Origin: Nemertoderma westbladi | Lineage: Eukaryota > Animalia > Xenacoelomorpha | Reading direction: 5' to 3' | Length of the DNA: 64,000 nt | Assembly: GCA_032718475.1 (NCBI GenBank) | Contig: JAUCBJ010000807.1 | Location: 1 to 64,000 of the forward strand | Part shown: positions 1-60,578 of the stretch, one piece after another | Layout: each line of letters opens with the position of its first letter | How positions within the stretch are numbered: the stretch's first letter is position 1 | The notes under the pieces: generated by a model | Told to the model about the DNA's origin: nothing | Seen by the model: the letters and a program-made list of their open reading frames with translations, nothing else | Databases searched by the model: none | Program-made: the position numbers and the translations under genes

Positions 1-32
1 ACCAACAGGGATATAAGCTGCAGACATCGCTT

Positions 33-2492
33 ATGCACAGATTTGACGGACTGAGGACGACTACATACGGGACGAGGCCACTCCTGAAGGCGTGTCGCGA
101 CAACCTACGCTACATTAAAGTGGGAAACGAGCGATCACTAGGGGTTCCTGTAGAACTCGGAGATGAGCCAAGGGGATACTGGAAGCGCTTCGTGGAGGAC
201 GTCAGAGAACTGGGATACCTGGGAGTTGACACAGAGGGACAAGCCCAGGCACCCCCCACCGCCATCCCTGACCGGGATGCGGATGGGAACCTGACGCTGA
301 TTGGGCCGAAGCATCGAAAGCGGAGGCGGAGGATCCATCAGGAGGAAGCCAGGGCGAAACAAGGAATGGCGTCGAGGCCTTACATAGCTCCGGCACTGGA
401 GACTCTAGACACCGTACTACACCTCGTATCGCCCGGAGGTTTAGTTATCGCCGTCGCGTACCCCTCAAAGGACGGCGAGAGGATCTGGAATAAAATTCCA
501 AAGGCGATGACAGACATATTATTGGACGAGAAGAACTACAAGGTAGGGTCGGCAATTCAAACCGACCTGACGGCTATAGGGGCGCCGGCGGACATCGAAC
601 CGATAGCGGACACCGCACTCCAGTTCCAGGCGATGGCATCGCCAAACACCGACGCATTGTATGCGCCGCCGAACAACGCCTTTGGGCTGGGTTCCTTTGC
701 CCGAGAGACCGGGCTGGTCAACTTCAAACCCATGTCCAGAGAGAAGTACGACCGACAGGCAGGGGCCACACGACTGACAATGGAACAGTTTAAGGCGAGG
801 CCCAGATGGCCCCCCACAACTGTATACTTTCCCATCGAGGAACCGACGACTAGACGCGGTTCAAGAACAATACATCCTACAGGAGGATTACGCAGCGGCG
901 TCAATCCCCCTCCTATTGACAGCCCACATGGTGGGCCTGGTTCCCCGAGCCTTCCGCGATAGTGGAGGCAGGATCCTCTCGGACCGAGAGGCTATCCGTA
1001 GGGTATTGTGGCCCCTTGTGGACTTCCCAAGGGATCAGAACCGGACCGAGGTCATTTATAACGCCAACTACCTGATGGATAAAGAAACCACACCGTCTCC
1101 CCGGCAAATCGACAGAATTCGCCGCCTAGGGGAGAGTAAAGTACCACGGGAGGAGACAAATCCACAGATGGGAAAGGGACCCGACAGTACCTACGAGGGA
1201 GGCTACTCCCTACAACCAGCTCCGGACGTCGAGACCCATAGCGACGACGAAGGTAGCGGCCAAATCCCGGCAGCCAAGATGGCGGCTTACGACGACTGGG
1301 ATTACCGATACGAGCCGAAAAGAGTCTGCCGAAGAGGACAGGACGACCGAGCACAGCTTTGGGGAAGAGCCGTAGAAGGATCTCCCGCGGGGCGGCTTTG
1401 GTGGCGGGATATATACGGGATCAGAGGAGACCGTTTGAACAGGCGGTGGAGAGGATGGTCGCAGACGGGAGAACACGGGACTGGGTTGCGTACTCTGGAG
1501 AGACGATGGACCGAAGGAACTCACCCGCCCGTAGTACTCGGGGGCTCCTCGCCCAGGGTCGCGGGGGGCGTCGCCCAACGGAGGGACCGTTGGGGATGCT
1601 GGGGCGTCGGCCGGGGGAACTACGTCGCCCATATACAGGACGAACGAGTGCCAACGCCGAAAATGACAGCGGGCAGGAGGAACGCGATAACTTCGGGGGA
1701 GAAATGCCGCCCCTGGAACAAATAAGGAGACCGGCACAAAGGGAGACGCGGTCTGCAGTCAGGAGACAGGTGGATCGCCGGGAAGAACCTACCATCCAAG
1801 AACAGCCGTTGCAGGCGGACGGACTTACGAAGGATCAGGGCGCATCAAACGTGGTGAGGGAGAGGAAACACGTTTACTACGTGAAACGTAGACCGATACA
1901 GGACAATGCTGGGTACGAATTTCAGCTACCGGCCTGTTATACCTGTGGAGCCCTGAGTCATATCCAGGACAGGTGTACGTTCGGCCCCCCGGACAAACTT
2001 CTCGGGGATCCGTGCTCGTACTGCGGCGAACGGGGACACTTCCTGGCGGCCTGCCAGGTACTGCACCGACTGTGCGGACGGTGCGGCTTCCGGGGACACC
2101 GGAACAGTGACTGTGACCAGAGGGAGCCGAGGGGGCGCTTAGAGCGATTCGAGTGCAACGCCAACATGGGGGTGGAGACCAGGCGTCGCCTCCTCAGGCG
2201 GGGGATTGCCATGGGTTTCTTCCGCATGAAGCCGGATTTCGTGCTCGCGATATCGAGGCGCGAGGAAACCGTGCAATACACCCATATCCTGCACGTCGCC
2301 ATGACAATAGGCATGCAGAGGATACAGGACACACTAGACGAGTGGCGGCCGGGACACCCGGGACACCTCGAAGGGTTCCTGGACCACTACACCGGGACCT
2401 ACTACCTCGAACACGTGGTAAAATACCACAGGGAGGTGGAGGACCAGAAGGAGGAGGATATCAATGACCGTAAAAGACGGCGAATTAAGTAG
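33..2492 (+). pseudogene. Frameshifted ORF encoding a DEDD(y)/WRN-like 3'-5' exonuclease followed by an Arg-rich linker and three CCHC zinc knuckles; probable LTR-retrotransposon accessory gene
   Basis: ExoI-like GYLGVDTEG, LHLVSPGG, KIPKAMTDILLDEKNYKVGSAIQTD (ExoII-like). After a frameshift near 840 the next frame reads VQEQYILQEDY (ExoIII-like). ORF 1359-2492 has CYTCGALSHIQDRC, CSYCGERGHFLAAC, CGRCGFRGHRNSDC. Split over three overlapping ORFs (33-962, 916-1725, 1359-2492). Confidence 0.7.
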
Positions 2493-2493
2493 G

Positions 2494-2850: not shown

Positions 2851-4932
2851 CGGGGGAGGGGGGGGGGGGGTGTGCGAGTGTGTATGCGTTATTACGGGTG
2901 GATAGTTCAACACAGTTTACAGAGCGGTGTGATTTGGTTAACCTAGTATTTAGAGTGTATGTGTGTACGTACGTGTGTATGAAAGTTACGTATAACAGTC
3001 ACACAGCAGTGGGTGAAGCAGAAGATGCCACCCACGAGTGGGGTTCGTCGCTGTGGACGCTCCCATTCACAACTTACGGTACCGAACAAGTAGGTACCAC
3101 CAATGGGGCCCACCTACCTTATCACAGGTACGTGCGCACATTGGGGGTGGCCCGATACGGACGGCCACAACAATTTGAGGTTGTTTGGAATGAGATAGCA
3201 CCGTGTGCAGTGATTGCGACAGGAATGAGAATGTAAGTTGGAAGTTAACGAATGACACAGAGTAGCTGGTTGGAGCGCAGCTGGGCGGATGGGTAGCACC
3301 CTGGGTTGGCCAGGATGCAGGGGGTCGATCCCACATTTGGGGGCTCGCCGTGCCATAGAGCCGGACCTGGAGAAAGTAACCGATAGCGCGTTCGGAGAGA
3401 TTATAAATATTTAAATGGGTGCCCAAAGGATCGTAAAAAACGTCAGAGAGCGTAGCGATGTGGTGTCCATGGGTGTGCCCATCACCAATAAGTGGTGCAG
3501 GGGTCACCCAGAGTACATACGAGTGAATGAGTGTGTGTGTGCGTGGCACAACGAACAAAATGTGTTTTTTTTTTTAATTAATTTATTTACATTATTTCGT
3601 ATCATGAATCCTTTATGGTGTGATACCATTGCCTACATCCGAGAGTGGATGGCACTGAACAGCGCGTTACGGGGCTTAAACCGTTTCACGATATCAACAC
3701 CCAGATGGGTGTTGATGTCAATCGTCTGTAGGGTCAGCGGAAACTCGTCTAGTGTGCTGACTCACGGCGAATTGGTAAAGGGACTATCAACTCCCGTTTT
3801 TTAAAACCATACTCCGGGTCAACAGTACCCACCATTATTTTTTTATCCTTTTTCTACCACAATTTTTTTTTACCGACAACCGATGGATTGTTTAGGAGTC
3901 GCCTACCTTTCCTGACGTTAACAGGGCGTCTACTGGCTCGTGCCTTTAGATATGGGAGTGTAAATCATTTACACTCCCAAGGGGGAGTGTGTCCGACAAC
4001 CGGAACCTTACCCTTCCCAAATCCACACATTATATTATACGAGTACCACGGGTTTCCCACCCAAGCCTAATGTTTGTACTGTAGGGGTAATTACTGTAGC
4101 GTTTGTACTGTAGGTGTAGGTAGGACTACGGAACTGACTAGTTACAGGGCACACGGGGGGGGGGGGGGGACTGGGCTGCAGTGATTTCCAGGAATATTAG
4201 TATTAGGTTACTACGTACGCCTTCCACCAAGTCAACTCTCAAGGTATCAATACAGACATGGGGCTAGGTGGATTACAAACGAGGTATACAAAGAGCACGT
4301 GATCGGGAACAGGTTGGCCGCCAGGCCACACCTGTAGCAAGACAGAGGTAGCAGGGAGATGGGATATTAGCCTTGCCAGAGATAGGAATGTACAATTAGG
4401 CGGTCAATATGTACTACATTATGTAGTACGTATTTATTGTTATATTGGGGGGGTTTCAGTAGGTTTTAGTTTTAGGTAGTAGGATTATGTACTTAATTAG
4501 GGTTTTTGCTACGTACGGGTGCCAGGCTGGGGTCTTAAACCCCAGTCTGGCTCATTACTAGGGAATATTCATCCGCGCTACCGGGGTACATTAGACACAG
4601 ATTAGCAATATTGGTTCAGTTGGTTTGGTGACAAGAGTGGAAGGTGATATCGTTGTTTTATGGCACAGTTCTTTAGTAGTACAGATTCCTTATTCATTTT
4701 ACGTATTCACTTATATTATTTTATCTTTTGTAAATGCATCTGATTTATTGTTTGTTATCTGTTTATATTCTGTCTATATTCTGTATTACTATGGTGCTGT
4801 GTAGGGATCGGCCTGCACAGACACCACACTGGAGCGTTTAGTTATCAGTTTCCTTTCCACCGGACGGGCGGGTTACCTGATTTGGGCGGTTCAGTGGGGA
4901 ACTCATCATTACGTGATATTTACGCCACTACA
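2851..4932 (+). mobile_element. Candidate polypurine tract plus 3' LTR of the exonuclease-carrying element
   Basis: Purine/G run 2852-2870 followed by TGTG at 2871; candidate end ...CGCCACTACA at 4932 where composition changes to AT-rich host-like sequence. No partner LTR in the window, so the boundaries are unverified. Confidence 0.3.
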
Positions 4933-28895: not shown

Positions 28896-28896
28896 T

Positions 28897-42960: not shown

Positions 42961-43059
42961 AATGCACATTTTGGTTTGATGTTACTTACTTTACCTTGGG
43001 TAGTGTTGTGCACACTCGTTCTTTCCTCGGGCTTTCTTCCATGAATTCTCTTAGGAGAC

Positions 43060-43294
43060 GTAAAAAAAGCAAACAGTCGGCCGAAGCCGGAGGCGACCCG
43101 AAGGCTCCTCTTTCGATAGCTGCTACCCGAGGGTAGGGGTGGGCGCTACTCCTATCCCAAGATTTGCTCGCAGTTATTTAACTGGTACTCATTTCATCGA
43201 CCCCAATGGATGAAAGGCTGAGTGGACCCTGGCGGGGCTGAACCTACAACCAATAGATTGCAGGCCCGGCGCTCAACCAACTGAGCTACCCCGC
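43060..43294 (-). mobile_element. tRNA-derived SINE inserted in gag of element A, 10-bp TSD CTTAGGAGAC
   Basis: Minus strand starts GGCGGGGTAGCTCAGTTGGTTGAGCG (A box) and has GGTTCAGCCCC (B box-like); central CCACTCAGCCTTTCATCC...GGTCGATGAAATGAGTACCAG resembles the Deu/Nin SINE domain (recalled, not searched); TSD at 43050-43059 and 43295-43304. Confidence 0.85.
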
Positions 43295-46200
43295 CTTAGG
43301 AGACATAGGAGGAGTTTTTGTTATCTGTTCTCTCCTGTCACTAGTTCGAGACTTAAATTTACTTACGTCCTTAGGCGCTTTGTTGACATAGTAAGATCTT
43401 TCGGTGTCTTGCCCGTTGTTCTCCTCTTGAGAGGCCTGGCTTTCGCCATCGTCTGTATAACACACTGATGTTACCTTTCTCCTAGAAACGGGTTTCTCAC
43501 TTACCTTATTTTCCGGTGTCTTCTCTCTGGACTGCTTTAGGAGCTGTAATTTTACCTCTCCATCCAAGAATGACATGAGATCAGCCATGGTAGGGTCTCT
43601 TCGTTGTTGTTCCATCATATATAGAACTCTTTTGTCCCAACGAGTACCCACTCCACCCTTTGGTAAGGTAGATGCTACAGCTCCAATAACCATAGAACTC
43701 TGATATTCATGAGACTTACCTAGCCAATCTAATTGTCTACAAATCTCCTGGATCTCATCGGAAAATTCTATAATCCCGCTGCTAATGAACTTTCGGGGCG
43801 CTACCAATTTTGCATACAAATACCTAGCTATGTTATTCCTATTACCATACCTGATGTTTAGTGTATCCCAAACTTGTCTTAATCCATCTGGATGTCAAAT
43901 AAACTTTAACGCCATTAACTTGGGAGATCCTTCCAAGCACTCGATGAGGCATCTAAGTTTCTCTCCATTAGATAGCACATAGTTTTGTATGTTATCTTTA
44001 TAATATTCATTAAAAGGTAACCATTTCATCTCATCTCCGTTAAACTTGACGATCTCTCCCACCTTTACCGCTTGACGGGCTTCGGTTCTAGCCATTTGAC
44101 GTGTAAAACTTTCTTGGGCCATCGTATTATTTAATATCGAGTTATCGGTATATAAATTTCTCGGATTATTATCAGGTCTATATGAAATACCATTATCAAC
44201 AGGTTTATCGCGACCCTTAATAGGGTATACTATAGGAGTTTCTACTTCACTAGCAGTATAGATGCGTGTAGGCTCCACACCTTGCGCATGAAATACTTCA
44301 GACCTAACAGGTTGACACATTGTTACAGAGGGTGGTGGTATACCCTTTTGTAGATTTACTAACTTATCGCGTTCTAACGCGATACTCTGCTGCACTTCCT
44401 GCAATTCTAACCTACTCTCTCTTACTGTTCCCCTTAACTGTTGAACAGTCCCCTCCAACTCTCGGACCTGCTGGGAGGAGCGTGCTTGATTCTCCTCCAT
44501 CTGCCCGAGGAGAATATCCATCCCCAGCCGTCGCTCATCCACCCACTCTACCGCCAAAGCGGGAGCCGCCAACATAGTAGCGGGTAGACGAGGGACGACG
44601 GGCGATAAATCGTTAATGTCTCGCTCGGCGTCCAGGACTGGAATTGACTCTGAAACATTCCTACTGGTTACAGGTAGTTTAGTACTGTGCAAAGGGAATT
44701 TGGAGTTAGGTTCTGGAAGTACAGGGGTCTCTATCACAGAAGGGGTGGCTTCGAGAACAGGCCTAATTATTTCAGGCTCATCTTCTATAGTAGGGAGTCT
44801 TTTTACTCTAATAATTTGGTCTGTGGGTTCTGTACTACCTAAGTCTGTGCTAGCTAGTTGCCTTCTCACAGCTGGGGGCAAATTAGGCAATTTCTGACGG
44901 TGGGGCGTTCTTCTACGCCTGCTGAGACGAGATCTATTTCCTCCGCCTTCAGGATCTGTTGTATCGCCTTCATCAGATGATGTAAATCCCTGTCTCTTGG
45001 GAGTAGATCAACTTATCATCTGCCACTGACTAGCTGTTCTCTGTTTATCTATGTAGTCTTGCTTCTCTTGAAGATTTTCCAACTCTAGTTGGGTGGTCTC
45101 TTCAGACGCCCTCCGTTCTGCTTCTGCCACTGCCTCTGCCGCTTTTCTTTCCGCTTCTGCAGCTGCTCGCTTGCGTCCTTCTGGGCTCCTCCCCGAGGCG
45201 CACCCACGAGGCGGATGCTGTCCCACCACCCCTGGGGCCAGTCTGACTCCATTTTTATCAGACCGGGCCGGAGGGTAGCCCGATGCTTCCCGGGTTCAAT
45301 TTTCAATCCCCCGATCACACCGGCACAGCTCGTCGGTGTAGCCAGATGGTCGGCTACTGTCAACTTACTGTGGCCTGACTGTACATTGAGCCAACTCAGA
45401 GAGTCAACCGGCGGGTGGACCAGTCGATAGCGATCGAGCATCAAGGTCGCCCTTGAGCCAAACCGACGGTCTTGTCCCAAGTGGGCTTGCGCTACCCACA
45501 TGGAATATTGACACGTTTTCACCCGCCTCGCCGACAGTATTGAGGGGAAGTTGGTTGTGCAAACAATACTGACTAGCTCGAAAGCTAGGACACAAGCTAA
45601 CCACTTACCAGTCACTGTACACGTGTACTCAACAGATGCTCACAAAATCAAGTACACAACGGTAAACACAAAATCGGACACATACCATGCACACACAGAG
45701 GACATAATCGGGAAAGACAAATCGGTGACAAAATTAGAGGGGACAAAATTGTATCGACTGATAAAAAGTCGAGAGTACCTTATTTTGCCATCAGGGCAAA
45801 ATAACTTTGTGTGCACAAAGTATGCTGGGGCGCAGTAAAGATATGGTCCTACTAATAACCAGCGGCGTCTAGACCAACCGGCAAGGTTTCCCACACTCAC
45901 TCGCAGTGGCCATACACACACTCACGTATACCACGTACCCACAGCAACAGAAAGCTCAAGCAAACTGCCACTGATCGTCCACACACAAACCACAGATTCC
46001 AGAGTATCTTTCACTCGGACCACACTACCACCATCCCCTCCTTGCAGCGGATATTCCGGGTGCTACCTCCATTCCAATAGTAGTACCAACAGAATCCTGA
46101 AGCCAGAATCAGAATCCTGCCCATTCCGATGCAACACCTCCATTCCAATAGTGCTACCCTGGGAAAAGACACGTTTCGGCAACCGATCGGAGACAGCAAA

Positions 46201-47826
46201 GAGTCTGGTCAACTCATACATACCAAACATAGACCTACCACATAAACCACAGATCACACTAAGCCACCACCCCTACTGTGTACAGGACTGGCAGTACGGC
46301 AACAGGCCGACTAGACGGTACCACGGCACCATGATGATTCATGGTTCGTAAGACACGAGGGCCTTCAGTAACTCCCTTGCACTATAGAAAGGATTTAACG
46401 TGCCCCCAGACCCTCACGAGTCCGCCGCCGCCTGTTAAAGGCACCCCTATAGAGACCTCACCTCTTTAGGTACCTTTCTTTCCGCTTCTGCCTCTTTTCT
46501 TTCCGCTTCTGCTGCTGCCATTGCCGCTTTCCTTTCCACTTCTGCCGCTTTTCTTTCCGCTTCTGCCGCTTTTCTTTCAGCCTCTGCCTCTGCCGCTGCC
46601 GGTGCCGCTTTTCTTTCAACTTCTGCCGCTGCCGCTGCTGCTATCTTTCTGTCTTCTATATGTTTTTTCTTTACCTGTTCTTCTTGCACCCTAGCGATGC
46701 GGATGCTTTCATCAAATTTAGCTTGGTTCGCAGCTAACATTTCCGCATCTATTGCGTCCAACACAAACTTGGCTCCTTCACTATTAGGACGAAGTCCAGC
46801 CAGCCGTCTCCTCAACTCTTAGTCACCTAGAAATCGTTGATAGTCCGACAGATAGATGTCAATAGCGTCCTTCTTCTGAGGTTTCTCTGCTGTCGCTTCG
46901 CTTTCCACTTGAGAAGAGGTAGCGTCTGTTGATTCTCCGTGGGTTGAGCGCTCAGCCAGCTGAAATTTCCACTGGGCCGTTCCTTGAACTTTGAGACCCA
47001 CCCGCTGGAACCAAGTCTTTACGGCAACTTGCAACGACGTGTCTTGGCTTCTTTTCGAAGCTTCCTCAAAGGCCGATAGGATTAGTCTGATTCTTAGAAT
47101 TCTTTCTCGAACTTGATAAAGCAGCTCTCCCTGCTCTTGAGGTCCTTTGGGTTGTTGAAACAGTTGTTCCTCTAATCGCTCCAGAGAGCTGAAGAATCCC
47201 TGTACATATCCTGCTGCCGACCTCTTCCACACAGCTGGATCTCTAGTGTCCCTTACCACTCCCATCCTGTATAAGTCCTCCCAGGCAGCTTCCGATAAGT
47301 TAAACGGGAGTCCGGGTCCGGGGAAATTCCATTGCGTCTCGACAATAGACTTCAGTTCCTCCTTCGTGTATCCCGCATAACTGTCCTTGGTCGATCGCTT
47401 ACTTCTCGCCCAATCCATTTGATGTTCCTCCATCGCAATCAATACTCTAGTGAGTACGGCTTCAGGAAGAATGAGAAGTGGATCCGAATAAACTGCATCT
47501 GCCATCTTTGCTACGCGCTCGGGTGTCAACTCTACAGTATCTGAACTACTGGAGCTATCGGGCCGCTGAGAAATAAGTTCTCGGCTCGGGTGTTGCTGCT
47601 GTTTAACAGCTGCTTCTTGGTCCCGCTTGACTTGAGCCCGAGTGCCTATGATAGACCTACGGTGTTTGACTAGCCTAGGATCTGATACTACTACTACTGG
47701 AGGGATGACCTTTCTTACAGTAGGAGGTGAGTTGAACTTCGGTCTCAAACGTTCCGCACTCCTATCTGGATCACAGATGGTTGTATCTAGGAGACTGTCT
47801 GACAGGTTTTGCTTTGTGTCAGACAT
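43286..47826 (-). pseudogene. Long BEL/Pao gag region of element A (coiled coils, DUF1759-like), interrupted by stops and a ~1.3-kb insertion
   Basis: IVKFNGDEMKWLPF, EKLRCLIECLEG, W...DPTMADLMSFL; AAEAERK coiled-coil repeats on both sides of 45180-46460. Confidence 0.75.
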
Positions 47827-47949
47827 GTTTGTTTGTACAGTTGAATGCCTACTGCTATAACTACAGTTAAAGCAAGTCTAGTAATTCAGTATCAACTGTT
47901 AGCCTAGTAATTAATTACCGATATCGTTACTCTAAGTAACGTGATATAT

Positions 47950-48215
47950 ATACAATATATTAAAATACCGGTATACACTTATAGTATATATATAAGTATT
48001 ATTACAGACTAGGTTTGTCACAGAATACCGGTATATAATTTCAGCGCAAATATATATAAATATATAATAAGCCTACTGTGAATACCAGTATACAGTTCCA
48101 CTTATAGTATATATAAGTATAATTATAGACTAAAATTAATTACAGAATACCGGTATATAATTTCAGCTTAAATTTATAGAAATAAATATAATAAGCCTAT
48201 CGTAAATACCGGTAT
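47950..48215. repeat. AT-rich tandem repeat (~60/120-bp period) in the 5' leader of element A
   Basis: AATACCGGTATA anchor recurs at about 47964, 48024, 48082, 48146 and 48205. Confidence 0.65.
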
Positions 48216-48898
48216 GTCAATTATTTTATAATAACTGAATTTCTGAATTTTAGGGTTACTTTACGTTACTTTATTACCGTTATTTAAGCAGTAGTCCAAC
48301 TGATATTAAGACCTAATTGATGAATGACAGGCCTACTATTTTATAAATCGGTTTGAGTTGATTTATAATATATATACCCGTATAATGGGTTTTTGTCAAT
48401 GTTTGAAATAAATGTTATTATTTCTAGGTAAGGAGTCACTACACAGAAGCTAGACGCTCTCAGTGGAGTGCTACTTATTGTATTGGACACTAAAACAAAT
48501 AATTCTAATTTACTAAGTTACTTATTACTACAAATTACGTACAATTACGGGGTGAGATTACAATCTCTAAATAAACACAAAAGTTACACGTACAAATTTT
48601 AGGGTAACTTTACAAGAAATCTGCAAACCAGCCTAACAAGGGGTTAGAATTTCTGGTTATTACAAACGGACAGGATACTACGGTATTTGAAAATAATAAA
48701 GCAGTAGTAAATATATTGCGTTGTCCAGATAGGAAAATACCACCGTCTGACGACTTATAGTCTCTAGCTTTACAGCTCTATAAGTACTACGTTATGTACC
48801 CGGAGTGTTCCTACCTAGAAGTTAATTACCGCAGCCAACCATAGCTAATGTGCCTATTAACCACTTTACAACACAAATATACTGCCTACACACTAATT

Positions 48899-49617
48899 AC
48901 AGCAACTGACACATGTAGGGTCTATGAAATAGCATTCATTTCACTCCAAAACCACTATAATGTAAGTCGCAATTGTTATATATAACGGGTCCCTCTTACC
49001 TTCAGTATATCAAGAAGATTGGGGTTTTATGATTATTTATCGATATTCTCCAAATATAACAACATATTCATCAACTGATAACAATTAATAACCGACAGTA
49101 AATAGCAGTAAAATAATGCGGTGAAAGGTATATATAGTATGATTATTGAGTGTTGCGTTTTGGTTTGATAACAGTTATACGTTCCTATAATCAAAGCCTA
49201 CTAATGTTTGGCTAAAGTCTGAAACACAGAATAATTCCAAAGCCGATGTTCCAGGGCTCAGGAAAAGGTAAACAAAGACCGTAATGCATTGCGCGATCTT
49301 CCGTAGGCTTCTGTACAAGATAAAATGAAAATCGCTCTGATTGGTCGAGCGAGCCGAACAAAGAAAGCCAAAAAGCTCCACATCGACATATCAGCTGGTA
49401 GATGTCGTCATCTGAACTACACTGTATTAAGAGTATTTTGACGCATTGCGGCATAAAATGGCTTGTTATGTCCGCTAAAGTACACATACAGAATAATGGC
49501 TTTTTATGTCCGCTAAAACACCTACACAGTAAGAAAAATGGCTTTTTATGTCCACTAAAATACCTACACAGTACTTTGCGGGGAAAATGACTAGCTATAT
49601 CCGCAAAAGCTTTTACA
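48899..49617 (-). repeat. Truncated 5' LTR of element A (3' part of the LTR, PBS and ~1.1 kb of leader deleted)
   Basis: Direct repeat of 34017-34743; comparison with the related copy at 61091-64000 shows a jump from mid-LTR to leader sequence equivalent to about 63440. Confidence 0.8.
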
Positions 49618-51067
49618 TTTCGTGGTAGGATATTCTTGTACATAGCTCATCATAGATGGGATTAACATACGTTATTTTATTATTCACCTAAGTAGCTTGT
49701 TGATTATTGTTTTTAGTGGTATCAAGGAACTATAATAATTGACGTTTCCCCAAAGAAAAAATCCATATTTAATTTTTATTGATTGTGTTTGGAGGGAGCT
49801 TTCATAGTTTATAATCTAAGAGAAGGATGAGTAGACTGTTTTTTTTAGATCAAGTGACAGACGATTATCTGATAACCAGCTGATAACCTTTGTTTCAGCT
49901 CTAACATTGAAAATAAAGAGTTGAGGTGGGATTAGAAAGGTAGAGAGGGTTGTACCGTCAGTGAAACCCCACGCTCGTGTACCCCGATTCTGGGGCTTCG
50001 GGCATCACGAAGTCTGTCTAGATGGGCGATTGCGAAGCACTCACTAGCAGCAGACAGAGGAACTATAGAAAGGGGTGTTTCTCTGTGAAGAATTTATAAA
50101 TTTTTGATAAACTAGAGGTGTACACCAAGTTTGGTTCTGTTTTATCAAAGCTTGATGTTCCAGAATAATTTAATAAACTGCACAATATGCTGCAATTGAA
50201 CGGAGAATGAATAAAATTGACACTGGCCTGTCTGTTACACGTAAATTAACTCGGTAACTATAAGTCGCATACGATTTTTAAATAATTATAGTTGATATAA
50301 TTATTAAGGTAAATGATGCCAAAATATTATAAAATTTCACTACAAGGAAATTTAATAAGTAATTTACAATAAATTGATATGGCTGCAAAATCCCCATATG
50401 GAATAACAAGGTATACTTCAGTCAAGCAGACGTAATGTCAGGGGCGTCACAGCCACCCTTGTGACCCCTGCGCTCCAGGGGTGGCGCAAGACCGGTGGGT
50501 GGGGGCTCAGCCGTTTTTTACAAGGACATCTTTTTACATGTTCAGTAAAAAAATAAACGAAAAATATAATAATTAAATAGAAGGTTAATAATTTCGACAA
50601 TTAATTTTTTTACAACTGTGAACATGATAATATTATGTACTGTAGCATCCTATGTGCATGGGCACATGGTTTTGAACCACAGTAATAACCCCCCCCCCCC
50701 CCCCCAGATCTATATTATTAACGATAACAGTTTAGACCAGGTAACAGGTAAGGTTAATGTTATCCCAACCCTGGCCATGGGTGGCCAAACGAATGTAAAA
50801 CGAACGGATGAAGTGGTAGGCATTCACAAGCGGTAACATAGTGTAAAGATGATAGAAAAAATATAAAGTATTGATTGAGGGTCTTTAGCTGGTTATATTA
50901 TATTAAATAAAGTACAATAGACCATTTAAGGTTGTAGCCCCAAGGTCAAGCCAACATTACCAATAATGCCCCCCCCCCCCCCCCCTTCCCCTCCCCCTCC
51001 CGCTCTCCGGCAGATCCCTTTTTCTCCATCCCATGATATGAATCGACAGCCTTATCCTTATCACTCA

Positions 51068-51894
51068 CTACCACAGTAGTCTGTAAAATATTACCGACTC
51101 GCCCTTCAGCCCCGTGTGGTCTACCAAACCCTCGAAAGTTACTTTGAAGGCTCTTCTGTAGTTCAGGGGTGATCCCGATAGCAGAAATGCCGTTGGTTCT
51201 CTTTCGATAACCAAGGTCATGAATAGGTTTAGCAAACCTATCATTATCCAGTCCTCCTGCAGGATATATCGCTTCTGATATATCTTTATCGCTCCTCTCC
51301 GGAATTGATACACCTCTTGCTTCCCCGGTCTCGCTCCCCACTTCAGCGAGTTCGCCAACTCCGCTCCGTACTCCTCCCTGAATTTACCCCAGTCCATTGG
51401 CTTGTGGCATACGAGCCCCATTAACTGGCCCATCGCCACCGCTCCACAATGACCCGCGTTCTCCACTAGTCCCAACCCGGCTGGCGCTGTCATAGCCATG
51501 TAGACCGTTTGCATGTCCAGAAGTTTGGGGGTCTCCGGACCGATGATCCTCTCCGCATCGTCGCGGATCGCCGATCCCACCTTTATCGTCGACTTCTCTC
51601 TTACTAGGCTCTGCACCGCCTTTGGCAACCGGTTTAACTTCGGCCCGTTCTTCTTCCCATACGTTCCCAGATCGAACAGGAATATATCCCCATTTGGCGC
51701 GGCCAAATGTAGGAGTATGGTTCTGGCCGACCCCGCCGACCCTCTTCTCGAACCTTCCTCGTCTTCCACGGTCCCCTCATCGTCTGGGACCATGTATCCT
51801 CCTCTTTATTTCCTAAAGTGCCAAATTTCCTAAATTCTCTAATTTTGTCAGTTACTTTAATTATGTTCTGGAATATCCTGCCTACTGTTACCAT
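51068..51894 (-). pseudogene. DEDD/WRN-like 3'-5' exonuclease accessory ORF 3' of integrase in element B
   Basis: GYMVPDDEG, LLHLAAPNG, NRLPKAVQSLVREKSTIKVGSAIRDD, GLVCHKPM, YQKRYILQEDW; collinear with the protein at 33-960. Confidence 0.75.
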
Positions 51895-52079
51895 AATTTG
51901 TCTAATTTTGATTTTAATATTTAATTTTAATCCTACAACTGGGCTATCAGTGTCTACTAATGGATTATTTATTCTTGTAATCCATATTCTGGCCTACTCT
52001 ATGGGCTGTGCAGTACAGCAGTATGTCTCATGCGGCCTACACGATCTGTCCTGCCGTACCCACGTGCCCCCCTCTCACT

Positions 52080-52612
52080 ACTCACTACTAACTCTACTAA
52101 CTTTTACTAACACACTAACTCTTACTAACATTCTAACTGGCTTCTACTAACGGTACTACGCGTACCCTCTTTCTAACTCTTCTACTAATGGTACTATGTA
52201 CCCTCTTACTAACTAACTCCACTAACTCTTACTAACGGTACTACGTACCCTCTTACTAACTAACCCCACTAACTCTTACTAACGGTTCTACATACCCTCT
52301 TACTAACTCTTCTACTAACGGTACTACATACCCTCTTACTAACTAACTCCACCAACTCTTACTAACAGTACTACGTACCCCCTTACTAACTCTTCTACTA
52401 ACGGTACTACGTACCCTCTTACTAACTAACTCCCCCAACTCTTACTAACGGTACTACGTACCCTCTTACTAACTAACTCCACCAACTCTTACTAACGGTA
52501 CTGCGTACCCTCTTACTAACTAACTCCACTGACTCTTACTAACGGTACTACGTACCCTCTTACTAACTAACTAGCTCTCTAACTAATGGTACTACGTATC
52601 CTCTTACTAACT
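52080..52612. repeat. ~47-bp tandem array (~11 units) between integrase and the exonuclease ORF
   Basis: Unit CTCTTACTAACGGTACTACGTACCCTCTTACTAACTAACTCCACCAA, containing the mini-hairpin GGTAC-TAC-GTACC. Confidence 0.9.
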
Positions 52613-52775
52613 TCTATCTGCCTACTTACTTACTACGTACCTACTATGTACTATTACTTTCCTTTCTCTTATTCTCTATCTCTATTATTTTTAAAAAAAA
52701 ATTTATATTTTGTGTGGGAAGGGTGTCTCGCCCTCAATCCCACCCCCCTTAGTCCAACACTTGGATGACTAAACT

Positions 52776-55532
52776 CTATGGTGCCCCTTCTAGCAGGCAA
52801 CATTTGCCTACAGCCCTCCTGTAGGTCTTTCTGTCTTTCGCTCCTATCTTGCAACCTATCCGCACCTCCACCGATCGGACTCTTCCGTCCTCGTCGGAGT
52901 AAGTGTCCACTACTCTTGCTAGTCTCCATTGATTGTTGATAATGGTGTCATCCGTGACGATCACCAAATCACCCTTCTTTAACTCCCTAGTGGTATTTCT
53001 CCACTTGCTCCTCCTATGTAGCGTGGGTAGGTATTCCTCAACCCACCTCCTCCAGTACTCTGCACTTATCGCCTTAGCGACTTTCCAACTCTGTCGGGAG
53101 TGTATGTCGTCTGGGTCTACACCCCGCATGTCGATGGTCGCTGGCCTCTCCATTAGAAAGTGACTGGGTGTCAGCACATCTAATGATTCTGGGTCGTCAT
53201 TCTCTGCGTATAGCGGTCTGCTATTGATGATACCTTCGCACTTGGCTAGTACTGTCCTTAGTATATCTTCTGTCACCATGTGGGTGTTCATCAACTTCGT
53301 CATCAGATGCTTGGAACTACCCACGAGTCTCTCGACGCATCCTAAAGTATGCGGGGCATACGTCCTCCCTATTTGCGACGAATATAGGGTATCTCGTCTT
53401 CTCATTGTGTAGCCAACCAAGCACTACCATGGAGTCCGTCCAGTAGTGTGTTTCCACTATGTTGGGAATAGTGTCCATCAAGTAGGCTGTGGCCCTTACT
53501 CCTAACCTCGCAGCTGTCAACTCGAGTTTCGGGACCGATGCTGAATCTGGCGGCGTCGACTTTGCTTTGCTGAATGCAAGTCGGGCTTATGAGCCCCCTC
53601 TCGTTGTACTAGGTAGAGTGCCGCTCCGTATGCTTCAAATGACGCATCGGAGAACATGTGTAGATCCAGATCCGTCTTGTTCCCATCCGGAAATTACACG
53701 CGTGGCATGCTGTATGTCCCCATCCGTTCTAAACTCTCCATCCACTTGCTCCATTGCTTGCTGATCTCTTCCGGGACCTCTGTATCCCATTCGTCCTTTA
53801 GCTTATATACTTTCTTAAGTATCTGTTTCCCCGTGACTAATAGTGGGGATGCTAGGCCTAGGGGATCGTATATCCTTGCTATGTATGATACATAGCCCCT
53901 CTTTGCGTGGATGTCTGCGCCCTCCTGTCTCAGCTGGTATTTGAACTCGTCTGTCTCTCGATTCCACACGATCCCTAATGCCTTCTGCTGGGATTCTACC
54001 CTCTTGTTCGCCATGTCCTGTCCCTTGGCTGTCGTGGGGTTATCCATGGTCAACTCTGGCCTCCTGTCCTCTATGGCTTTCATAAACTCTTCTGAGCTGG
54101 ATTGGAACTTGGTCAGGTTGAACCCGGATCCTTTTAGGATGTCGTGAACCTTGCGCCCTGTATCCAGTAGTTCTTTAACCGTATTTCCAGATTCCATTCC
54201 GTCGTCTACATAGAAGCCGCGTCGAATCATATCGACGGCTTTGGTGCTATATTTTTCCTCTTTCCCCTCCACTGTATCCCTCACGTCCACAGTCGTCGTA
54301 AATGAGGACGACTTGGCCCCCATATTCTGCACCACCATCTTGTACACTGGTATTGTCGATGGTTCCTCGTCGCCGTTATACCATAGGAAGCGCTGGCTGT
54401 CACTATCCTCCTCCGTCACGCGGACTTGGTTGAACATGCCTTCAATGTCGCAGGTGAAGGTGTGCCTCCCGTTTCTGAATCTGAGTAGGACCTCGATCCC
54501 TGAGTTATAGATATTGGGACCCTCCAGCAGATAATCGTTTAGGCATTTGCCGTTGGTCTTAGCCGATGCGTCAACTACCATCCGCAGTTTACCTTTCTTC
54601 GGGTCTAGAGCCACGTGAAGTGGCAGGTAATAGGTCCTATCCGTGTTCGGTCTGTCGACCGGTAACTCCACGGCCCATCCTTTCTCGACATACTTTGTTA
54701 TCATTCTATGAATGTACTCATTCTTTTCGGGGCTCCGTTTTAGCGTTTGCTTCAGTTTACGAAGCCTCGTGAGTACCATCCCCTTGTTGTCCGGTAGCGG
54801 TAATTTTGGTTGTTTCCATACCATCCCTATGGTGTACCGCCCCTCGTCGCATCTCATCGACTCCTTTACACTTTGTATTGCCTGTTTATCTTCCACCGAG
54901 GTTCCGACCCCGGTCTCTTTCAATCCCTCAAAATCCTGCCTAAGCAGTCTCCTGAGCTGCTCCTCCGCTCCTTCATCTTCCATCTCCCTCATAGTTCCCG
55001 CGAACATGCACCCTGATGTCTCCGACATCCTAAACGGAATCCTGGTTCTAATTGGGCCGCTTAGCGTCCACCCAAATGGTGTTAAAATTGCCACCCGGTC
55101 ATGCTGCCTGTCTTCGGCGAAGACCGTCTGCATTCTCTCATGGGCTGTCGGGAAGTCCATTCCTACTATAATGGATACCTTCCTAACTTCCACCTCTGGT
55201 ATTGAGAAGTCGATAGTGTCCAGGAATCTATATTGTTTGACCTCGATGTTGTTTGGTCGCCTGGCGTTGATATTTATCGATTCTATCACCTGAATGGGGT
55301 CGATCGTCGCCCCATAATCGCATCCCAGTGCTATCGCTGCTATCCCGCACCGTCCGGTCCTCATCTCCAGGACCTCATCTTTGCTGGAGATGGTTGTTAC
55401 CGCCATTCTACTTGGCCTTGTCTTTAGTCCTATCTCTTCGGCTACCCAATCCTCGACCAATGTGAAGGCTGCTCCACTGTCGACCAGCATTAGCGTGGTT
55501 ACTGATCGATCGCCTTCTCCGATCACCCTCAC
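52776..55532 (-). pseudogene. BEL/Pao pol of element B with an internal deletion removing late RNase H through most of the integrase core
   Basis: LVDSGA; RMVVDAS, EGPNIYN, CDIEGMFNQV, FYVDDG; YDPLGLASP, LHMFSDAS, PKLELTAA, YWTDS, FVANR, then an immediate jump to APHTLGCVERLV, INSRPL, LTPSHFL, DGRVRSV. Confidence 0.9.
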
Positions 55533-55539
55533 TGGTACT

Positions 55540-58500
55540 ACCCCGAGTCGTACCGTTCCTCTCTTCTACGGTGCTTGTCGCCATTGTCTATCCTTTGCCT
55601 TGCATGAACTTAATTGGTGTTTCCTTGCATTGGTTAGCTCTATGTCCACCCATCACACATCGAGGACAGACTTCGCTCCTCCTTGCGTATTCTATCTGAT
55701 CTTCTCTGGGCAGCGCTTGCCAATATCTGCAGTTCATGGTCTGATGAAGTGCGTTCGTGTGTAATTGGCATTTGTTGTTTGGGTTATAGCCATCCTTATA
55801 TAGTGCGCTCCGTATCGCACTTGCGTTCGTACCTAGATCTCTACTATTCTTATTGTTTGGGTTCGGCCTACTGGGCGTGTTGGGGTTATGTTTATTTGTG
55901 TTGTTATTTTTACCCTGTCCGCTCCATGGTGTAGCCCTACCCCCGGCTACATGTGGACTAGCAGTCCCCTGCGTTGCCGTGTATGGCAGCAATTGTCTGA
56001 GCTTTGGCAATGCATTCGCCGTGTTGTGTTCTGGTTTCGGCCTATTGTATTCGGTCTTTGGCCCCTTTCCCAGACTATCCTCGCTATAGACTGGGTCGGT
56101 GATTAATTCGGCTTCATAGTTGAGGAAGCTCGACATTTCTTCTAGGCCTGGTTCCGTACCCGTCTTCTCCCTGGTGAAGAAAGCGATTTTCCTCCATTTA
56201 TTGCGCAGCCAGATCGGCAGTGCCTGCGCTATCGTGGTGATGTTATTAGATGCGTTGAGTTCGTATGGCGCATCTAGCGTCTTCAATATGATTAGCGCCT
56301 TCTCGACTTGACTCTCGACTTATGCTAACGGGGTTATCCTGTAGGCCACCCGATCTTATACCTCTTAGGGTTTGCCGGATGATCTTGGCCGGGTGCCTGT
56401 ACTCCCTGTCTAGCGCCCGCCATGCTGTCGTGAAGCCACCCTCGATGCCCTGGTACTGCCTCACGATGTCGTATGCTGGGCATCCTGTATACACCTGTAG
56501 ATATTTTAGGCACTCCGCCTGCATCAGGTTCTTTGTCAATATTTCATTGCTGTACATGCGCCTAAAATGGAGGTATTCTTCCGGCCTACTTCCATCGAAT
56601 TTAAATGGTTCTACAGGTGGTAACTCGATTCTGGTCTTCAATGCATCGATTAATGTAGCCATTCCCATCGCCTGTGCTTCCAATGGGTTCGATGGATGCT
56701 GTACAGATTCTCCCGTTGGGTGCGGTCCGCTCGTCCTGTCTGTTGCGCTCCTTTGCGTCGGGTATATCATTGGGGGTAATGGCCCCCTCCATATTTCCGT
56801 GTCGCATGATCTGTTCTCGTCCAGGGGGTTCGATGCTTATTCCTGTTTGAGTATATTGTTGATATTGTGATGGGGGAATGTCACCCTGCCCCCCCCCCCC
56901 CCCCCCCCACCGGTATATTTGGTACTGGGGTTGATGTTAATATACATATCCATACACCTATCCGCAATAACTCTCCCCTCCCCTGGATATATGTTATGTC
57001 CCTGCATGCTATAGTCATACTGTTGTGCTGGGACCGGTATAGGCCTATCCACTTCTGGCCTACCTACCGGTATGTACTCCGCGACTTCCTGGCTTAATCC
57101 CGTCGTCCGCGCTACCCTATCGCATACATTATCTCTCCCAGCATGGCCTATAGTATGTGCAGTAAGGCCTACAGTATGTCCTGCAGTCTGTATGTGTCCC
57201 TCCGGACCGAAGTTTAACCTTCTCGAATAATCCAAGAAGTCCTCCCCGCGACTACTGTATCCTCGATCGGCAGCTATATCCCGTCGGGAAGTTTCTCTTC
57301 GATCCCCTCTGCTATTCTCGTCCTCGTACCGTCCTCGTCCTATACCCCTCTCTCGGCGTATAGTACACCTCGCCAGGTCGCGTCTCTCCGGGACGATGGC
57401 AATCTCCCGGAGTTCGACCCCACCGACTCTCCAACTCCATCTCTACTACCGACAGCTCGCTATCCGTCCTCGCTCTCCTGTCGCTCGCAATGACACTTCT
57501 TCTACACTCTTCTCTTCTTCTTTCTGCAGTGTAGCGTCCCCGCTCGTGGGATCTCTCGTCGACCTCCCGGTTAAACTCCACTGTTCTTCTTCCCTCTTCT
57601 GACTGGGCTCGACGTCTCGTCGCTCACCCTCTCGCGACGCCAACCTCTCTCTCTCTACCCGGTAGCATGCCGCTGGGGACATTCGTAATCCCCCTACTAT
57701 TCTCCATCACCGGGTGCTGCAGTTCACCTAATTCGCCCCGCGCATTATCCGCCGACGCCTGTGGGGCACTCTCTGCCCCCCCCCCCCCTCTCGCCCTCTA
57801 ATCTCTCGTTGTGGGGCTCCTGTAGCCCCCCCCCCCCCCCCCACTCGCCACCTATCACTTCACTATCTCTCACTTCACCTCTACGCCCCTCTCTAGTCGA
57901 CACACTATCTCTACTGCGGCTGGGTCTATTCACACCCGCCTCTCCCTCTATTGCTGCGTTGCCTGGCAGGCTCCCGTCGGGTTGACTCAACCCCGCCACT
58001 CCCTGCGCACTAACTACGTGGCCTACAAGGCCCCCTTCGGGGTCTCTCACCCCCGCTACTTCCTGCGTACTGATTACGTGGCCTACCAGGCTCTCGTTTG
58101 CCGGGCCACCTACATTTGCTGTGTTTACATTAATAGCACCATTATTAATATTATTTTCTGAATTATTTAAATTATTAGAATTACTCTGTGCTGAATTCGG
58201 ATTATTATTTAAATTATTTTGTATATTTGAATTATTTTGGATTCGGATTATTTTGTTCGTTTGAATTAAAATTATTATTTAGATTATTTTGCGTATTTAA
58301 ATTATTTGAATTATGTAGTATATTCGAATCTAGATTATTATTTGAATTATCTGTATATTTAAATTAGGATCGTTCGGATTTAAATTACTATTATCGGGCA
58401 AAATATTATTTCCTGCAATGAAAGTTTGATTAGGGTTATCTACTACGGTATTATTAATATTAATGTTCTCTAAAGTATTATTATTACCCCCCCCCCCCCC

Positions 58501-59338
58501 CCCCTCCGCCCGTATGGTTACACCAGTCTTGGGTCTGTCGTCCGGTCCCTGTAAGTGGGGTATTAACAAACGTTTCCATAACTTCTGGCTCCTCGTAAAC
58601 ACTACCTGAGCCAGCCTCGCTCTCTGATAGCCCCAACTGCGCCAGTTCTAGTCGGCGCTTCTGCTTGGCCTGATACTGCATAAGCCCCCTTAGCCGGGCG
58701 TGCATATCATCCCGCATACGCTTTCCCGCTCTCTCTCTCTCCCTATCCTCCCTTAAACTTTGGTCCGCAAATTCTACCTCTCTCGCCTCCCGCTCTCTAC
58801 GTTCATTCATTTCTCTCACTTCCCATTCTTTGCGCTCCGCTTTCTCCCTCATCTCTCGTTCCTCGCGCTCTTTCTCTACTCTCGTCTCTCGTTCCTCGCG
58901 CTCTTTGCGCTCGCTCATCTCTCTTTCTTCCCGCTCCCTACAGTTTCTCGCCACCCTCTCGGCCCTCTCTCTACACTCCTTCGCCAGTTCCCTCTCCTTT
59001 TCTAACAACGCAGTCCCCTCGTCCAACTGCCTCTCTAACTCTTTCTGGTCTAGCGCCACCATGTCCAACTGACACGCCAGATCTATCTCCAACACCCTTC
59101 TTGCTTTCGCGGAGGATGAAGCGGACTTATCGGTCACAACGGACTCCCGTCGCCTCTCTGTCCTACTAATTTTCCCCCGCTTTCTGGGGTTCTCGCTAAC
59201 CAACGAGACCGAATCCTCGGGGTTAACCTCGGATTCGCCCACGTGCGGGTTTGCCCAACCCACTAACTTAATTCCCCTAGCATCAACTAAATACGCCCTA
59301 TGTACACTATCTGGGGCTCCATAATCCCGGATCGCCAC
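55540..59338 (-). pseudogene. gag region of element B (E/R coiled coil, Asn-rich segment, DUF1759-like, zinc knuckles), frameshifted
   Basis: PFKFDGSRPEEYLHF, LKYLQVYT, AWRALDREY, LPIWLRNKW, CQLH..HQTMNC, CPRCVMGGHRANQC. Confidence 0.8.
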
Positions 59339-59989
59339 AGTTCAAATAGTTCGGTGGTGACCCCCCTCGCTCTCTCACTCGCTAGTTCTCCCTGCCCGAA
59401 GTGAACTAGGTACCTAAAGTGTTTGTTCGACACAGCTAGTCGCTGGTTTAATTTCTTACCTTAAATCTTACCTTAAATTTCTACCTTTGCTCCTTGTTTG
59501 GCCTCTTTGAGCTGCTTCTTCGTCGTGTTGTAGGCTCGTCGGAGCCGGTCACTGGTTCCGACGTCCTCGTCGTCGACCTCTCCTCCTCCCCCTCCTGGTT
59601 CGGCATCGTACCGGCGGCCCCACCGTCGCCATTCCGGTGGGCTGTCCGTCGCCCTCGGCCTGTGGCTGGCCGGCGACATCGGTACTACGACCGCCGTCGT
59701 GCGTCGACTCCTCCTCCCGTTGTGGTAGACGGCCGCCCTCCGCTTGGGCTGCCGGATTGTCTCTGTCCGGCGAGTCCGGCGTTGCGGGTCGATACCGTCG
59801 CGTCGCGCCCTCACGGATCGTCTCGTTCGTATCGTCCGGGGTCCGTGGCGGTGTCGTCTCTCCCTCTAGATCTTGGGGTTGCGTACTCATCTTTTAACGC
59901 TTTCTTTGGTGGCTGGCAGTCACAGTTTTAACAGTAGTACTCTGGATTTTTGTTCTGTGACGGGATCAGAGGATCCCGACCAGTGAATT

Positions 59990-60578
59990 TGTTACGCGTC
60001 GCCGTGCCGTTAGGGAAAAGATAGTTTGTTGTTGTTATCTTTGATGTTGATATAAACGGTAATATAATATAATTAATGTGAATATAATAGCACAGTTGTC
60101 CAGGATGAGATAACGAATAATATGATATGCTAATAAGATAATACACTGAATAGGATACCGGTAACGGTGGTAACACGACGGTACAAAAATGTCACTGGTC
60201 CCCACTGTGTGACTGAGATAACTGAATAGGATACAAACACTAACCGGTAATATATATTCACCTCTACTCTACTTGTGGCCTTGTTACTTAGCGGATGCAT
60301 TTTCCTTGTCCCCGATTGGCCAATAACCTAATTCTCGGCTCCCACCTCTGTGGGAGTGTTCCCCCCCCCCCCCCCCCCCCCCGCTGCTGTCACTTTCCCT
60401 CTCCAAGAGGTTTGACCTCTAACCTCTTTTGTGTGTGGCTCTTTGGGGCCGTGTGTTGTCCCCATTTATTGGGGGTGATACGAGGTTGATTGTAATCCAC
60501 CTCGTACTCCCCAATATTGCTTAAAACGTCACTTCTCAACTTTATGGGGTTGGTGGAGCGGAATTGAATCCGCTCACA
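59990..60578 (-). repeat. Candidate 5' LTR of element B (~590 bp)
   Basis: TGT...AACA termini and a TGG start of a possible PBS 7 nt downstream; no second copy to confirm it. Confidence 0.45.

What the first reader, a model, noticed from the sequence alone, without database searches (positions are those of the whole stretch)
51068..52776. BEL/Pao retrotransposon carrying an extra 3'-5' exonuclease (DEDD/WRN/RNase D-like) gene downstream of integrase
Seen: where an env-like ORF3 would sit, element B has a same-strand ORF with ExoI-like DxE (PDDEG), LHL, LPKAVQSLV...KVGSAIRDD and QxxYILQED, in the order and spacing of WRN/EXD/MUT-7-type exonucleases. Known: DEDDy exonuclease extra ORFs have been described in bdelloid rotifer retroelements, but they are not a standard part of BEL/Pao elements as far as I know. 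Inference: a captured nuclease that could proofread or trim cDNA/primer ends, or degrade host piRNAs/siRNAs as a counter-silencing factor.
Basis: partly seen in the sequence, partly recalled or inferred. Interest (0 to 1): 0.85.

Follow-up and report, generated by a model that had tools for sequence, protein, structure and literature searches.

The report
BEL/Pao retrotransposon with accessory exonuclease gene
A broken copy of a many-copy BEL/Pao jumping gene in an animal genome has, behind its integrase gene, part of an extra gene that selection has kept and that likely encodes a 3'-to-5' nuclease; it probably belongs to the element and would most likely trim RNA ends to blunt the host's silencing, a cargo already known from rotifer retroelements.

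Summary
The ORF is real: 51068-51805 (minus strand, 245 codons), not the whole interval given. It lies on the same strand as, and downstream of, a decayed BEL/Pao gag-pol. It is multi-copy and protein-constrained: 24 of 34 listed variants are synonymous against 10.5 expected.

A 30%-identical homologue at window 3-1062 keeps all three exonuclease motifs. It is followed by three CCHC knuckles, a G-run and an LTR-like end. Pfam, PDB and protein-database searches found no relative. The DEDDy call rests on conserved D-x-E, D and Y-x3-E/D motifs, ESM feature matches to PF01612 (0.78 and 0.94) and a weak profile test chosen after the fact.

The weak point is linkage. Coverage by other copies breaks at both ends of the ORF, no contig was seen bridging it to pol, and no LTR pair was found. 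Similar depth, shared strand and codon bias, and a comparable deletion inside pol favour a native third gene (about 70%).

DEDDy third genes are known in bdelloid LTR and Athena elements. I found none reported for BEL/Pao. Activity, substrate and expression are untested.

The parts
51068..51805 (-). Extra ORF (245 codons), DEDDy-like 3'-5' exonuclease domain plus a short helical C-terminal part; probably a fragment of a longer third gene
51773..51796 (-). ExoI-like motif with D8 and E10
   Evidence: aligned to the invariant D and E of 22 PF01612 proteins and to the homologue's DTE
51557..51583 (-). ExoII-like motif, K75 to D83
   Evidence: D83 invariant in the 24-row alignment; the stretch matched by my profiles
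51251..51268 (-). ExoIII-like motif Y180 with E184/D185; six residues identical in the homologue
   Evidence: which acid is catalytic is not settled
51799..51805 (.). Break point: contigs of other copies stop matching the window here from both sides
   Evidence: table 8 (X1 record 8, X5 records 31 and 32)
51024..51067 (.). Stretch private to this copy (single-copy depth) directly after the ORF's stop
   Evidence: table 2 and X2 record 9
50798..51008 (-). Purine tract and multi-copy 3'-terminal segment with a sharp boundary at 50798; not shown to be an LTR
52086..52612 (.). 47-bp tandem array between integrase and the exonuclease ORF
52776..53423 (-). Integrase C-terminal part (DUF5641, E 1.3e-25)
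53357..53368 (.). Internal deletion in pol: about 460 codons of the neighbouring BEL element have no counterpart
   Evidence: an X5 contig ends at 53362 (table 8)
53368..55565 (-). Protease, reverse transcriptase and RNase H (Peptidase_A17), with a frame change near 53690
55588..56836 (-). gag pieces: DUF1759 and zinc knuckle
56837..59893 (-). Broken low-complexity 5' coding region, presumed gag N-terminus; multi-copy with the same strand bias
   Evidence: no Pfam hit
59980..59995 (-). Candidate LTR end and primer-binding-site start; not matched to a tRNA
   Evidence: read from the sequence; untested
3..1062 (+). Second exonuclease homologue (29-30% identity, E 9e-14), frame change near 800-810, open back to the window's first codon
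1257..2492 (+). ORF with three CX2CX4HX4C knuckles following the second homologue
2858..3550 (+). G13 run followed by a 680-bp segment with 5-bp inverted ends, 3'-LTR-like; no partner in the window

Best explanation
The ORF is a multi-copy, selection-kept gene fragment lying downstream of BEL/Pao integrase on the same strand; it likely encodes a two-metal DEDDy 3'-5' exonuclease, is probably the remnant of this BEL/Pao family's own third gene, and would most likely trim single-stranded RNA 3' ends to blunt host small-RNA silencing. Shown: open frame, multi-copy state, synonymous excess among copies, motif conservation with a 30%-identical homologue, and breaks at both ends in this copy. Inferred: DnaQ fold with D8, E10, D83, Y180 and E184 or D185 (about 90%); native membership of the BEL family, with deletions having brought the pieces together here (about 70%); separate translation from a spliced or subgenomic RNA, since about 1 kb of non-coding DNA separates it from pol; an RNA substrate, suggested by the three CCHC knuckles after the homologue; and counter-silencing as the purpose (about 40% if the rest holds). 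The confidence given is for 'catalytically competent exonuclease native to this BEL/Pao family', not for the substrate.
For: Selection: 24 of 34 listed variants in the ORF are synonymous against 10.5 expected, p 2.2e-6. The only other frame with an excess shares third positions (20 of 34) and has 6 stops. None of the 12 listed indel rows (of 23) falls in the ORF. Identity: the homologue at 3-1062 (E 9e-14; best of 30 shuffles 0.12) keeps DTE, KVGSAI-x2-D and YILQED. ESM Atlas gives PF01612 at 0.78 for the ORF and 0.94 for the homologue. D8, E10 and D83 are invariant in a 24-row alignment. With an 8-sequence PF01612 profile the two ORFs rank 1 and 2 of 118 window ORFs, and 2 and 0 of 2,000 shuffles reach them. 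Linkage: summed depth stays high from about 50800 to 59880 in X1, X2 and X3 (ORF bin 23,774/25,024/11,846; RT bins 20,000-38,000; flanks 632-2,075). The purine-rich coding-strand bias runs unbroken from 51000 to 59990. Third codon positions are G-rich and T-poor in the ORF (G 0.44, T 0.10), in this pol (0.35, 0.11) and in the homologue (0.38, 0.11), but not in the other BEL element, the LINEs or the LDLa ORF (T 0.22-0.43). A known deletion inside pol shows the same contig-break signature. Mechanism precedent: arenavirus ExoN takes part in suppressing innate immune signalling (PMC7968707, abstract).
Against: No Pfam hit, no significant PDB sequence hit, no homologue among 1.84 billion representatives or in three word-index searches. 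Two of my three profiles were weak or blank for the ORF: 165 and 7 of 500 shuffles reached it. hhalign gave at most 2.6% probability, no better than the best of 60 shuffles. The profile that worked was chosen after I saw the alignment. ESM 0.78 is a lead only, and the homologue shares 162 features, under the tool's mark of 170. The ORF has proline before D8, and ExoIII reads Y-x3-E-D rather than Y-x3-D. Coverage breaks at both ORF ends, no listed contig bridges ORF and pol (two joints across the break are single contigs with sides under 30 letters), and no LTR pair was found. The homologue's parent element lies outside the window, so its superfamily is unknown. Depth is a summed figure and is not a copy number. 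Nothing here tests substrate or expression.
Confidence: 0.55

Rival explanations
1. The exonuclease is a real retroelement gene but belongs to another high-copy element, for example a gypsy-type family with an exonuclease-CCHC third gene. A 740-bp piece was joined to this BEL copy by template switching, nested insertion or deletion.
For: Coverage breaks at both ends of the ORF, and no bridging contig is listed. The candidate 5' and 3' ends of the element do not match (local score 56, shuffles up to 70). The other BEL element in the window has no such ORF.
Against: Depth of the same order as pol with sharp outer edges. Same strand, unbroken purine bias and the same third-position bias as this pol, unlike the other elements in the window. 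A true internal deletion in pol gives the same break pattern.
Confidence: 0.25
2. The gene is native and active but serves replication: it trims RNA or single-stranded DNA 3' ends (primer ends, non-templated RT additions) or proofreads reverse transcription inside the particle.
For: Bdelloid authors proposed 3'-end processing of element RNAs (PMC5408684, section 4). Dada exonucleases were proposed to process cleaved 3' ends (PMC3706591 passage). Nidovirus ExoN proofreads (PMC7968707, abstract). The knuckles after the homologue are nucleocapsid-like and could carry it into particles (inference).
Against: Belpaoviridae are described with only gag, pol and env-like genes (PMC8742986), so most replicate without it. 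Integrases process 3' ends themselves, and retroelements of about 10 kb manage without proofreading (own knowledge).
Confidence: 0.25
3. The protein is a catalytically weak or dead DEDD derivative kept for RNA binding, like EXD1, Maelstrom or Egalitarian.
For: Odd residues at ExoI (P7) and ExoIII in this copy, and long insertions between motifs. Inactive DEDD derivatives act in piRNA biology (PMC5408684, section 4). Unchecked notes report dead exonuclease cargo in other genomes (e1-9332486).
Against: The acidic residues of all three motifs are kept between two proteins only 30% identical.
Confidence: 0.1
4. The ORF is an env-like membrane protein, a host gene, or a chance frame.
For: It sits in the env position, and direct database searches found no exonuclease hit.
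Against: Best 19-residue hydropathy is 1.44, with no N-glycosylation or furin motif and 2 cysteines. Synonymous excess, multi-copy state, element-type codon bias and a motif-conserving homologue all argue against it.
Confidence: 0.03

Closest known systems
DEDDy ORF3 of bdelloid rotifer LTR retrotransposons Juno and Vesta, and of Athena/Terminon elements (PMC5408684; passages and sections 3.6 and 4 read)
   Same: Separate third ORF downstream of pol, RNase D/WRN-like DEDDy type, no transmembrane part, catalytic acids kept, activity not demonstrated.
   Different: Those are low-copy rotifer lineages; whole-word search for BEL + LTR + DEDDy found 0 papers. Here the neighbour is BEL/Pao and multi-copy, with a clear synonymous excess, whereas that paper saw no clear departure from neutrality (tested in detail for env and GDSL ORFs). 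I could not compare sequences with the rotifer ORFs.
Belpaoviridae / Semotivirus (PMC8742986, whole text read; PMC3118150, passages read)
   Same: gag with DUF1759 and knuckle, then protease, RT, RNase H (PF05380) and integrase C-terminus (DUF5641), in that order.
   Different: The profile lists only gag, pol and an env-like gene. 'exonuclease' does not occur in the main text of the 62-genome survey (supplements not read). LTRs were not found for this copy.
WRN exonuclease / EXD2 / MUT-7-Nibbler / RNase D group (PF01612)
   Same: Motif order and spacing, invariant D, E and D; top ESM family; top structural matches of the alignment-guided model (mouse WRN 2e6l, Z 9.7, rmsd 3.5, 146 aligned).
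   Different: About 20% identity at best, below Pfam detection, with long insertions, Y-x3-E-D at ExoIII and a C-terminal extension. The model was built on PF01612 rows, so its matches are not independent.
Dada DNA transposons of Laccaria and Ectocarpus (PMC3706591, passages read)
   Same: A mobile element carrying a DEDDy domain with four catalytic residues.
   Different: There the domain is inserted inside a DDE transposase of a DNA transposon; here it is a separate ORF next to a retrotransposon pol.

Membership tests
DEDDy 3'-5' exonuclease (PF01612) | ExoI D-x-E | tested here: met
   D8/E10 align with the invariant D/E of 22 PF01612 proteins; the homologue has DTE. P7 is atypical.
DEDDy 3'-5' exonuclease (PF01612) | ExoII aspartate after the K-x-G strand | tested here: met
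   K75 and D83; D83 invariant; region matched by my profiles
DEDDy 3'-5' exonuclease (PF01612) | ExoIII Y-x3-D | tested here: inconclusive
   Y180 aligns, but the acid is E184 (Y-x3-E) or D185 (Y-x4-D); identical in the homologue
DEDDy 3'-5' exonuclease (PF01612) | Score above Pfam's curated cut-off | tested here: not met
   No Pfam family reported for the ORF or the homologue
DEDDy 3'-5' exonuclease (PF01612) | DnaQ / RNase H-like fold | tested here: inconclusive
   Single-sequence model failed (pLDDT 30.8). The model on a PF01612-seeded alignment reached pLDDT 64 and matched WRN at Z 9.7 but is circular. ESM features point independently to PF01612.
DEDDy 3'-5' exonuclease (PF01612) | Metal-dependent 3'-5' exonuclease activity | not testable with these tools
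   needs an assay
BEL/Pao (Belpaoviridae) | gag-PR-RT-RH-IN order with PF03564, PF05380 and PF18701 | tested here: met
   most of the integrase core is deleted in this copy
BEL/Pao (Belpaoviridae) | Two LTRs, primer-binding site and polypurine tract | tested here: inconclusive
   No matching terminal repeats. A purine tract precedes the 3' segment, but G/C runs of 12 or more occur 15 times in the window. The primer-site candidate was not matched to a tRNA.
Retroelement DEDDy ORF3 (bdelloid type) | Separate ORF between integrase and 3' LTR in independent copies | tested here: inconclusive
   Position, strand, depth and codon bias fit; no bridging contig and no whole genome available
Retroelement DEDDy ORF3 (bdelloid type) | Sequence kinship with Juno/Vesta/Athena exonucleases | not tested
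   No such sequences were returned by any search
env-like ORF3 | Transmembrane segment, glycosylation sites, furin site | tested here: not met
   on the surviving 245 codons only

The most novel reading that the evidence does not exclude
A successful lineage of BEL/Pao elements encodes its own deeply diverged exonuclease-plus-zinc-knuckle protein. It is old enough to have split into 30%-identical forms within one genome, is invisible to Pfam and protein databases, and destroys or trims host silencing RNAs: a retrotransposon-encoded nuclease suppressor of piRNA/siRNA defence in animals.
Probability: 0.2. Interest if true: 0.8.

Novelty: new variant of a known kind. Interest (0 to 1): 0.5.

Why it matters
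The Belpaoviridae profile I read lists only gag, pol and an env-like gene. A conserved nuclease in the third slot would extend enzyme cargo from low-copy rotifer elements to a third kind of retroelement. It would also give a case where the cargo is clearly under purifying selection, which the rotifer study did not find. If the enzyme acts on small RNAs, it offers a direct test of whether animal LTR elements encode active counter-silencing enzymes. The family is missed by Pfam and by large protein databases, so such genes are probably under-annotated.

Tried and rejected
No hit or no use: Pfam; PDB sequence searches (0; EXD2 at E 0.45, rank 4 of 6 behind helicases; two unrelated hits); homologue searches and full phmmer; metagenome contigs and viral contigs; single-sequence AlphaFold (pLDDT 30.8); Foldseek on the guided model (0 matches at E 0.001 or better). 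A profile of 20 short PF01612 proteins gave no signal and a mixed profile of 40 only a weak one; hhalign gave no support. 80 enterobacterial RNase D loci were too alike and were not used in profiles. No whole genome is held. No RNA holder was listed, which says nothing about expression. Look-ups of earlier findings by sequence found nothing. LTR searches failed. I considered the 160 bp before 50798 as a 3' LTR, but it has no partner, and contigs show head-to-tail repeats starting at 50798, so I leave it open. An env-like reading was rejected, and so was the antisense frame (6 stops). Literature searches turned up no BEL/Pao exonuclease in titles, abstract starts or the passages read. Repbase, GyDB, Dfam, subscription journals and the supplements of PMC3118150 were not seen.
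Full report
Observation. None of 20,000 base-shuffles of the stretch stays open. The rest of the reported interval is non-coding and includes a 47-bp tandem array. Upstream on the same strand lies a BEL/Pao gag-pol: DUF1759, a zinc knuckle, aspartyl protease, RVT_1, Peptidase_A17 and DUF5641. Peptidase_A17 is the BEL/Pao RNase H according to PMC3985635 (passage). This copy is decayed. It has several frame breaks, and about 460 codons present in the window's other BEL element are missing at about 53360.

The ORF is a real, multi-copy gene. Contigs of four public DNA runs (three studies; X1 and X3 are one sample) were laid on the region. Summed depth is high from about 50800 to 59880, including the ORF, and falls more than tenfold on both sides in X1, X2 and X3. 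The tool states that this depth is not a copy number, so I give none. On the ORF itself the tool listed 40 of 200 variant rows, 34 of them inside the frame. Of these, 24 are at third positions and 24 are synonymous, against 10.5 expected (p 2.2e-6). Four other frames show no excess. The plus frame that shares third positions scores 20 of 34 but holds 6 stops. Roughly half of the rows are listed mainly because of single X5 contigs, so they are not 34 independent events. None of the 12 listed indel rows (of 23) lies in the ORF.

A second homologue lies in the same window at 3-1062 on the plus strand, 29-30% identical, E 9e-14; the best of 30 shuffles reached 0.12. It has D-T-E at 228, KVGSAIQTD at 540 and YILQED at 871, and one frame change near 800-810. 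It is open for 75 codons upstream of the first motif. It is followed by an ORF with three CX2CX4HX4C knuckles, short tandem repeats, a G13 run and a 680-bp segment with 5-bp inverted ends. That looks like the 3' end of an LTR element, but its pol is outside the window.

What the protein is. Direct searches fail: Pfam, PDB sequences, 1.84 billion representatives, three word-index searches, and metagenome and viral contigs. The positive evidence is as follows. ESM Atlas returns PF01612 clusters for both proteins, at 0.78 (a lead only) and 0.94 (reached by 4-10% of shuffles). In an alignment with 22 bacterial PF01612 proteins (22 of the 40 fetched), D8, E10 and D83 are invariant, and K75, W156 and Y180 fall in columns conserved at 90% or more. 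My own profiles were mixed. With 20 short PF01612 proteins there was no signal. With all 40, the ORF ranked 5 of 118 window ORFs (7 of 500 shuffles as high) and the homologue ranked 1 (0 of 500). hhalign gave no support. With the eight proteins that looked closest in the alignment, which I call WRN/EXD2-like from recall, the two ORFs ranked 1 and 2 of 118 (7.4 and 5.2 bits; next -0.8), and 2 and 0 of 2,000 shuffles reached them. That subset was chosen after the fact. AlphaFold failed on the single sequence. On the seeded alignment it gave pLDDT 64 and pTM 0.60, with best matches to mouse WRN exonuclease (Z 9.7) and EXD2 (Foldseek E 1.6e-3). This shows only that the sequence is compatible with the fold. 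Taken together I put the DEDDy assignment at about 90%.

Does it belong to the BEL element? In favour: the same strand, depth of the same order, and a purine-rich strand bias unbroken from 51000 to 59990. The ORF, this pol and the homologue share a G-rich, T-poor third-position signature that the other BEL element, two LINE RTs and the LDLa ORF lack. Against: contigs of other copies stop matching at 51799-51805 from both sides, and 51024-51067 is private to this copy. No listed contig bridges ORF and pol; two joints across the break are single contigs with sides under 30 letters. No LTR pair was found. The 3' boundary at 50798 is sharp, with loose ends in 25, 14 and 15 contigs of X1, X2 and X3, but some contigs show head-to-tail repeats starting there. 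The certain deletion inside pol shows the same kind of contig break (X5 record 29), so deletions within one element explain the pattern simply. I put native linkage at about 70%.

How it would work (inferred). About 1 kb of non-coding DNA separates the ORF from pol, so it would be translated separately. The four acids would bind two metals and remove nucleotides from single-stranded 3' ends, as in the WRN/EXD2/Nibbler group (own knowledge). Belpaoviridae are described without such a gene (PMC8742986, whole text), so it is accessory. The knuckles after the homologue point to RNA. I therefore favour trimming of RNAs that feed or guide host silencing, with arenavirus ExoN as a loose precedent (PMC7968707, abstract). 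Processing of primer or cDNA ends, proofreading, and a catalytically dead binder are the rivals. None was tested.

Comparison with what is known. DEDDy third genes are described in bdelloid Juno and Vesta LTR elements and in Athena/Terminon elements (PMC5408684, passages and sections 3.6 and 4; PMC6431247, passages and section 7). A DEDDy domain also occurs inside Dada transposases (PMC3706591, passages). PMC6338049 cites the rotifer work for this domain (passage). 'exonuclease' does not occur in the main text of the BEL/Pao survey PMC3118150 or the annelid survey PMC8556966; their supplements were not read. Eight literature searches showed no BEL/Pao case, but Repbase and subscription journals were out of reach. 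Unchecked notes from this scan report exonuclease cargo, one with a CCHC knuckle, in LTR elements of other genomes. They lower the surprise and feed the chimera rival, and are not evidence.

Verdict. This is a real, selected, probably active DEDDy exonuclease gene of a deeply diverged retroelement-borne family, probably native to a BEL/Pao lineage, seen here as a fragment. It is a new variant of a known kind; interest 0.5.

Noticed in passing
window 3-3550: Second, distant exonuclease gene followed by a triple-CCHC ORF, about 44-bp tandem repeats, a G-run and an LTR-like segment; the parent element lies outside the window and is unclassified.
   Followed up: partly
window 34017-49617: A second BEL/Pao element (coding 38083-47877, minus strand) lies between two 728-bp direct repeats of 96% identity (34017-34743, 48899-49617), possibly its LTRs. 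About 3.3 kb after its integrase holds a 176-codon ORF with no Pfam hit and no exonuclease homologue. Related repeats recur inverted at 61130-64000.
   Followed up: partly
window 5293-9575 and 18375-21107: Large inverted duplication in several arms of 90-99% complementarity, enclosing two RT-bearing ORFs and a GC-rich 39-bp array of 34 copies near 11612-13200.
   Followed up: no
window 28878-32350: 17/18-bp satellite whose orientation flips near 29260, forming a palindromic junction.
   Followed up: no
window 32425-33246: Uninterrupted 273-codon ORF with a hydrophobic start and four LDL-receptor class A matches, directly after the satellite.
   Followed up: no
window 50798-50858: Some contigs show this 61-bp terminal unit repeated head to tail, and depth peaks there; the element's 3' end does not look like a canonical LTR end.
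   Followed up: partly
window-wide: 15 runs of 12 or more G or C, several inside the BEL coding region near frame breaks; these may be slippage or assembly errors.
   Followed up: no
window 25418-25897: Fragment of an endonuclease (Exo_endo_phos_2) ORF, a LINE remnant.
   Followed up: no
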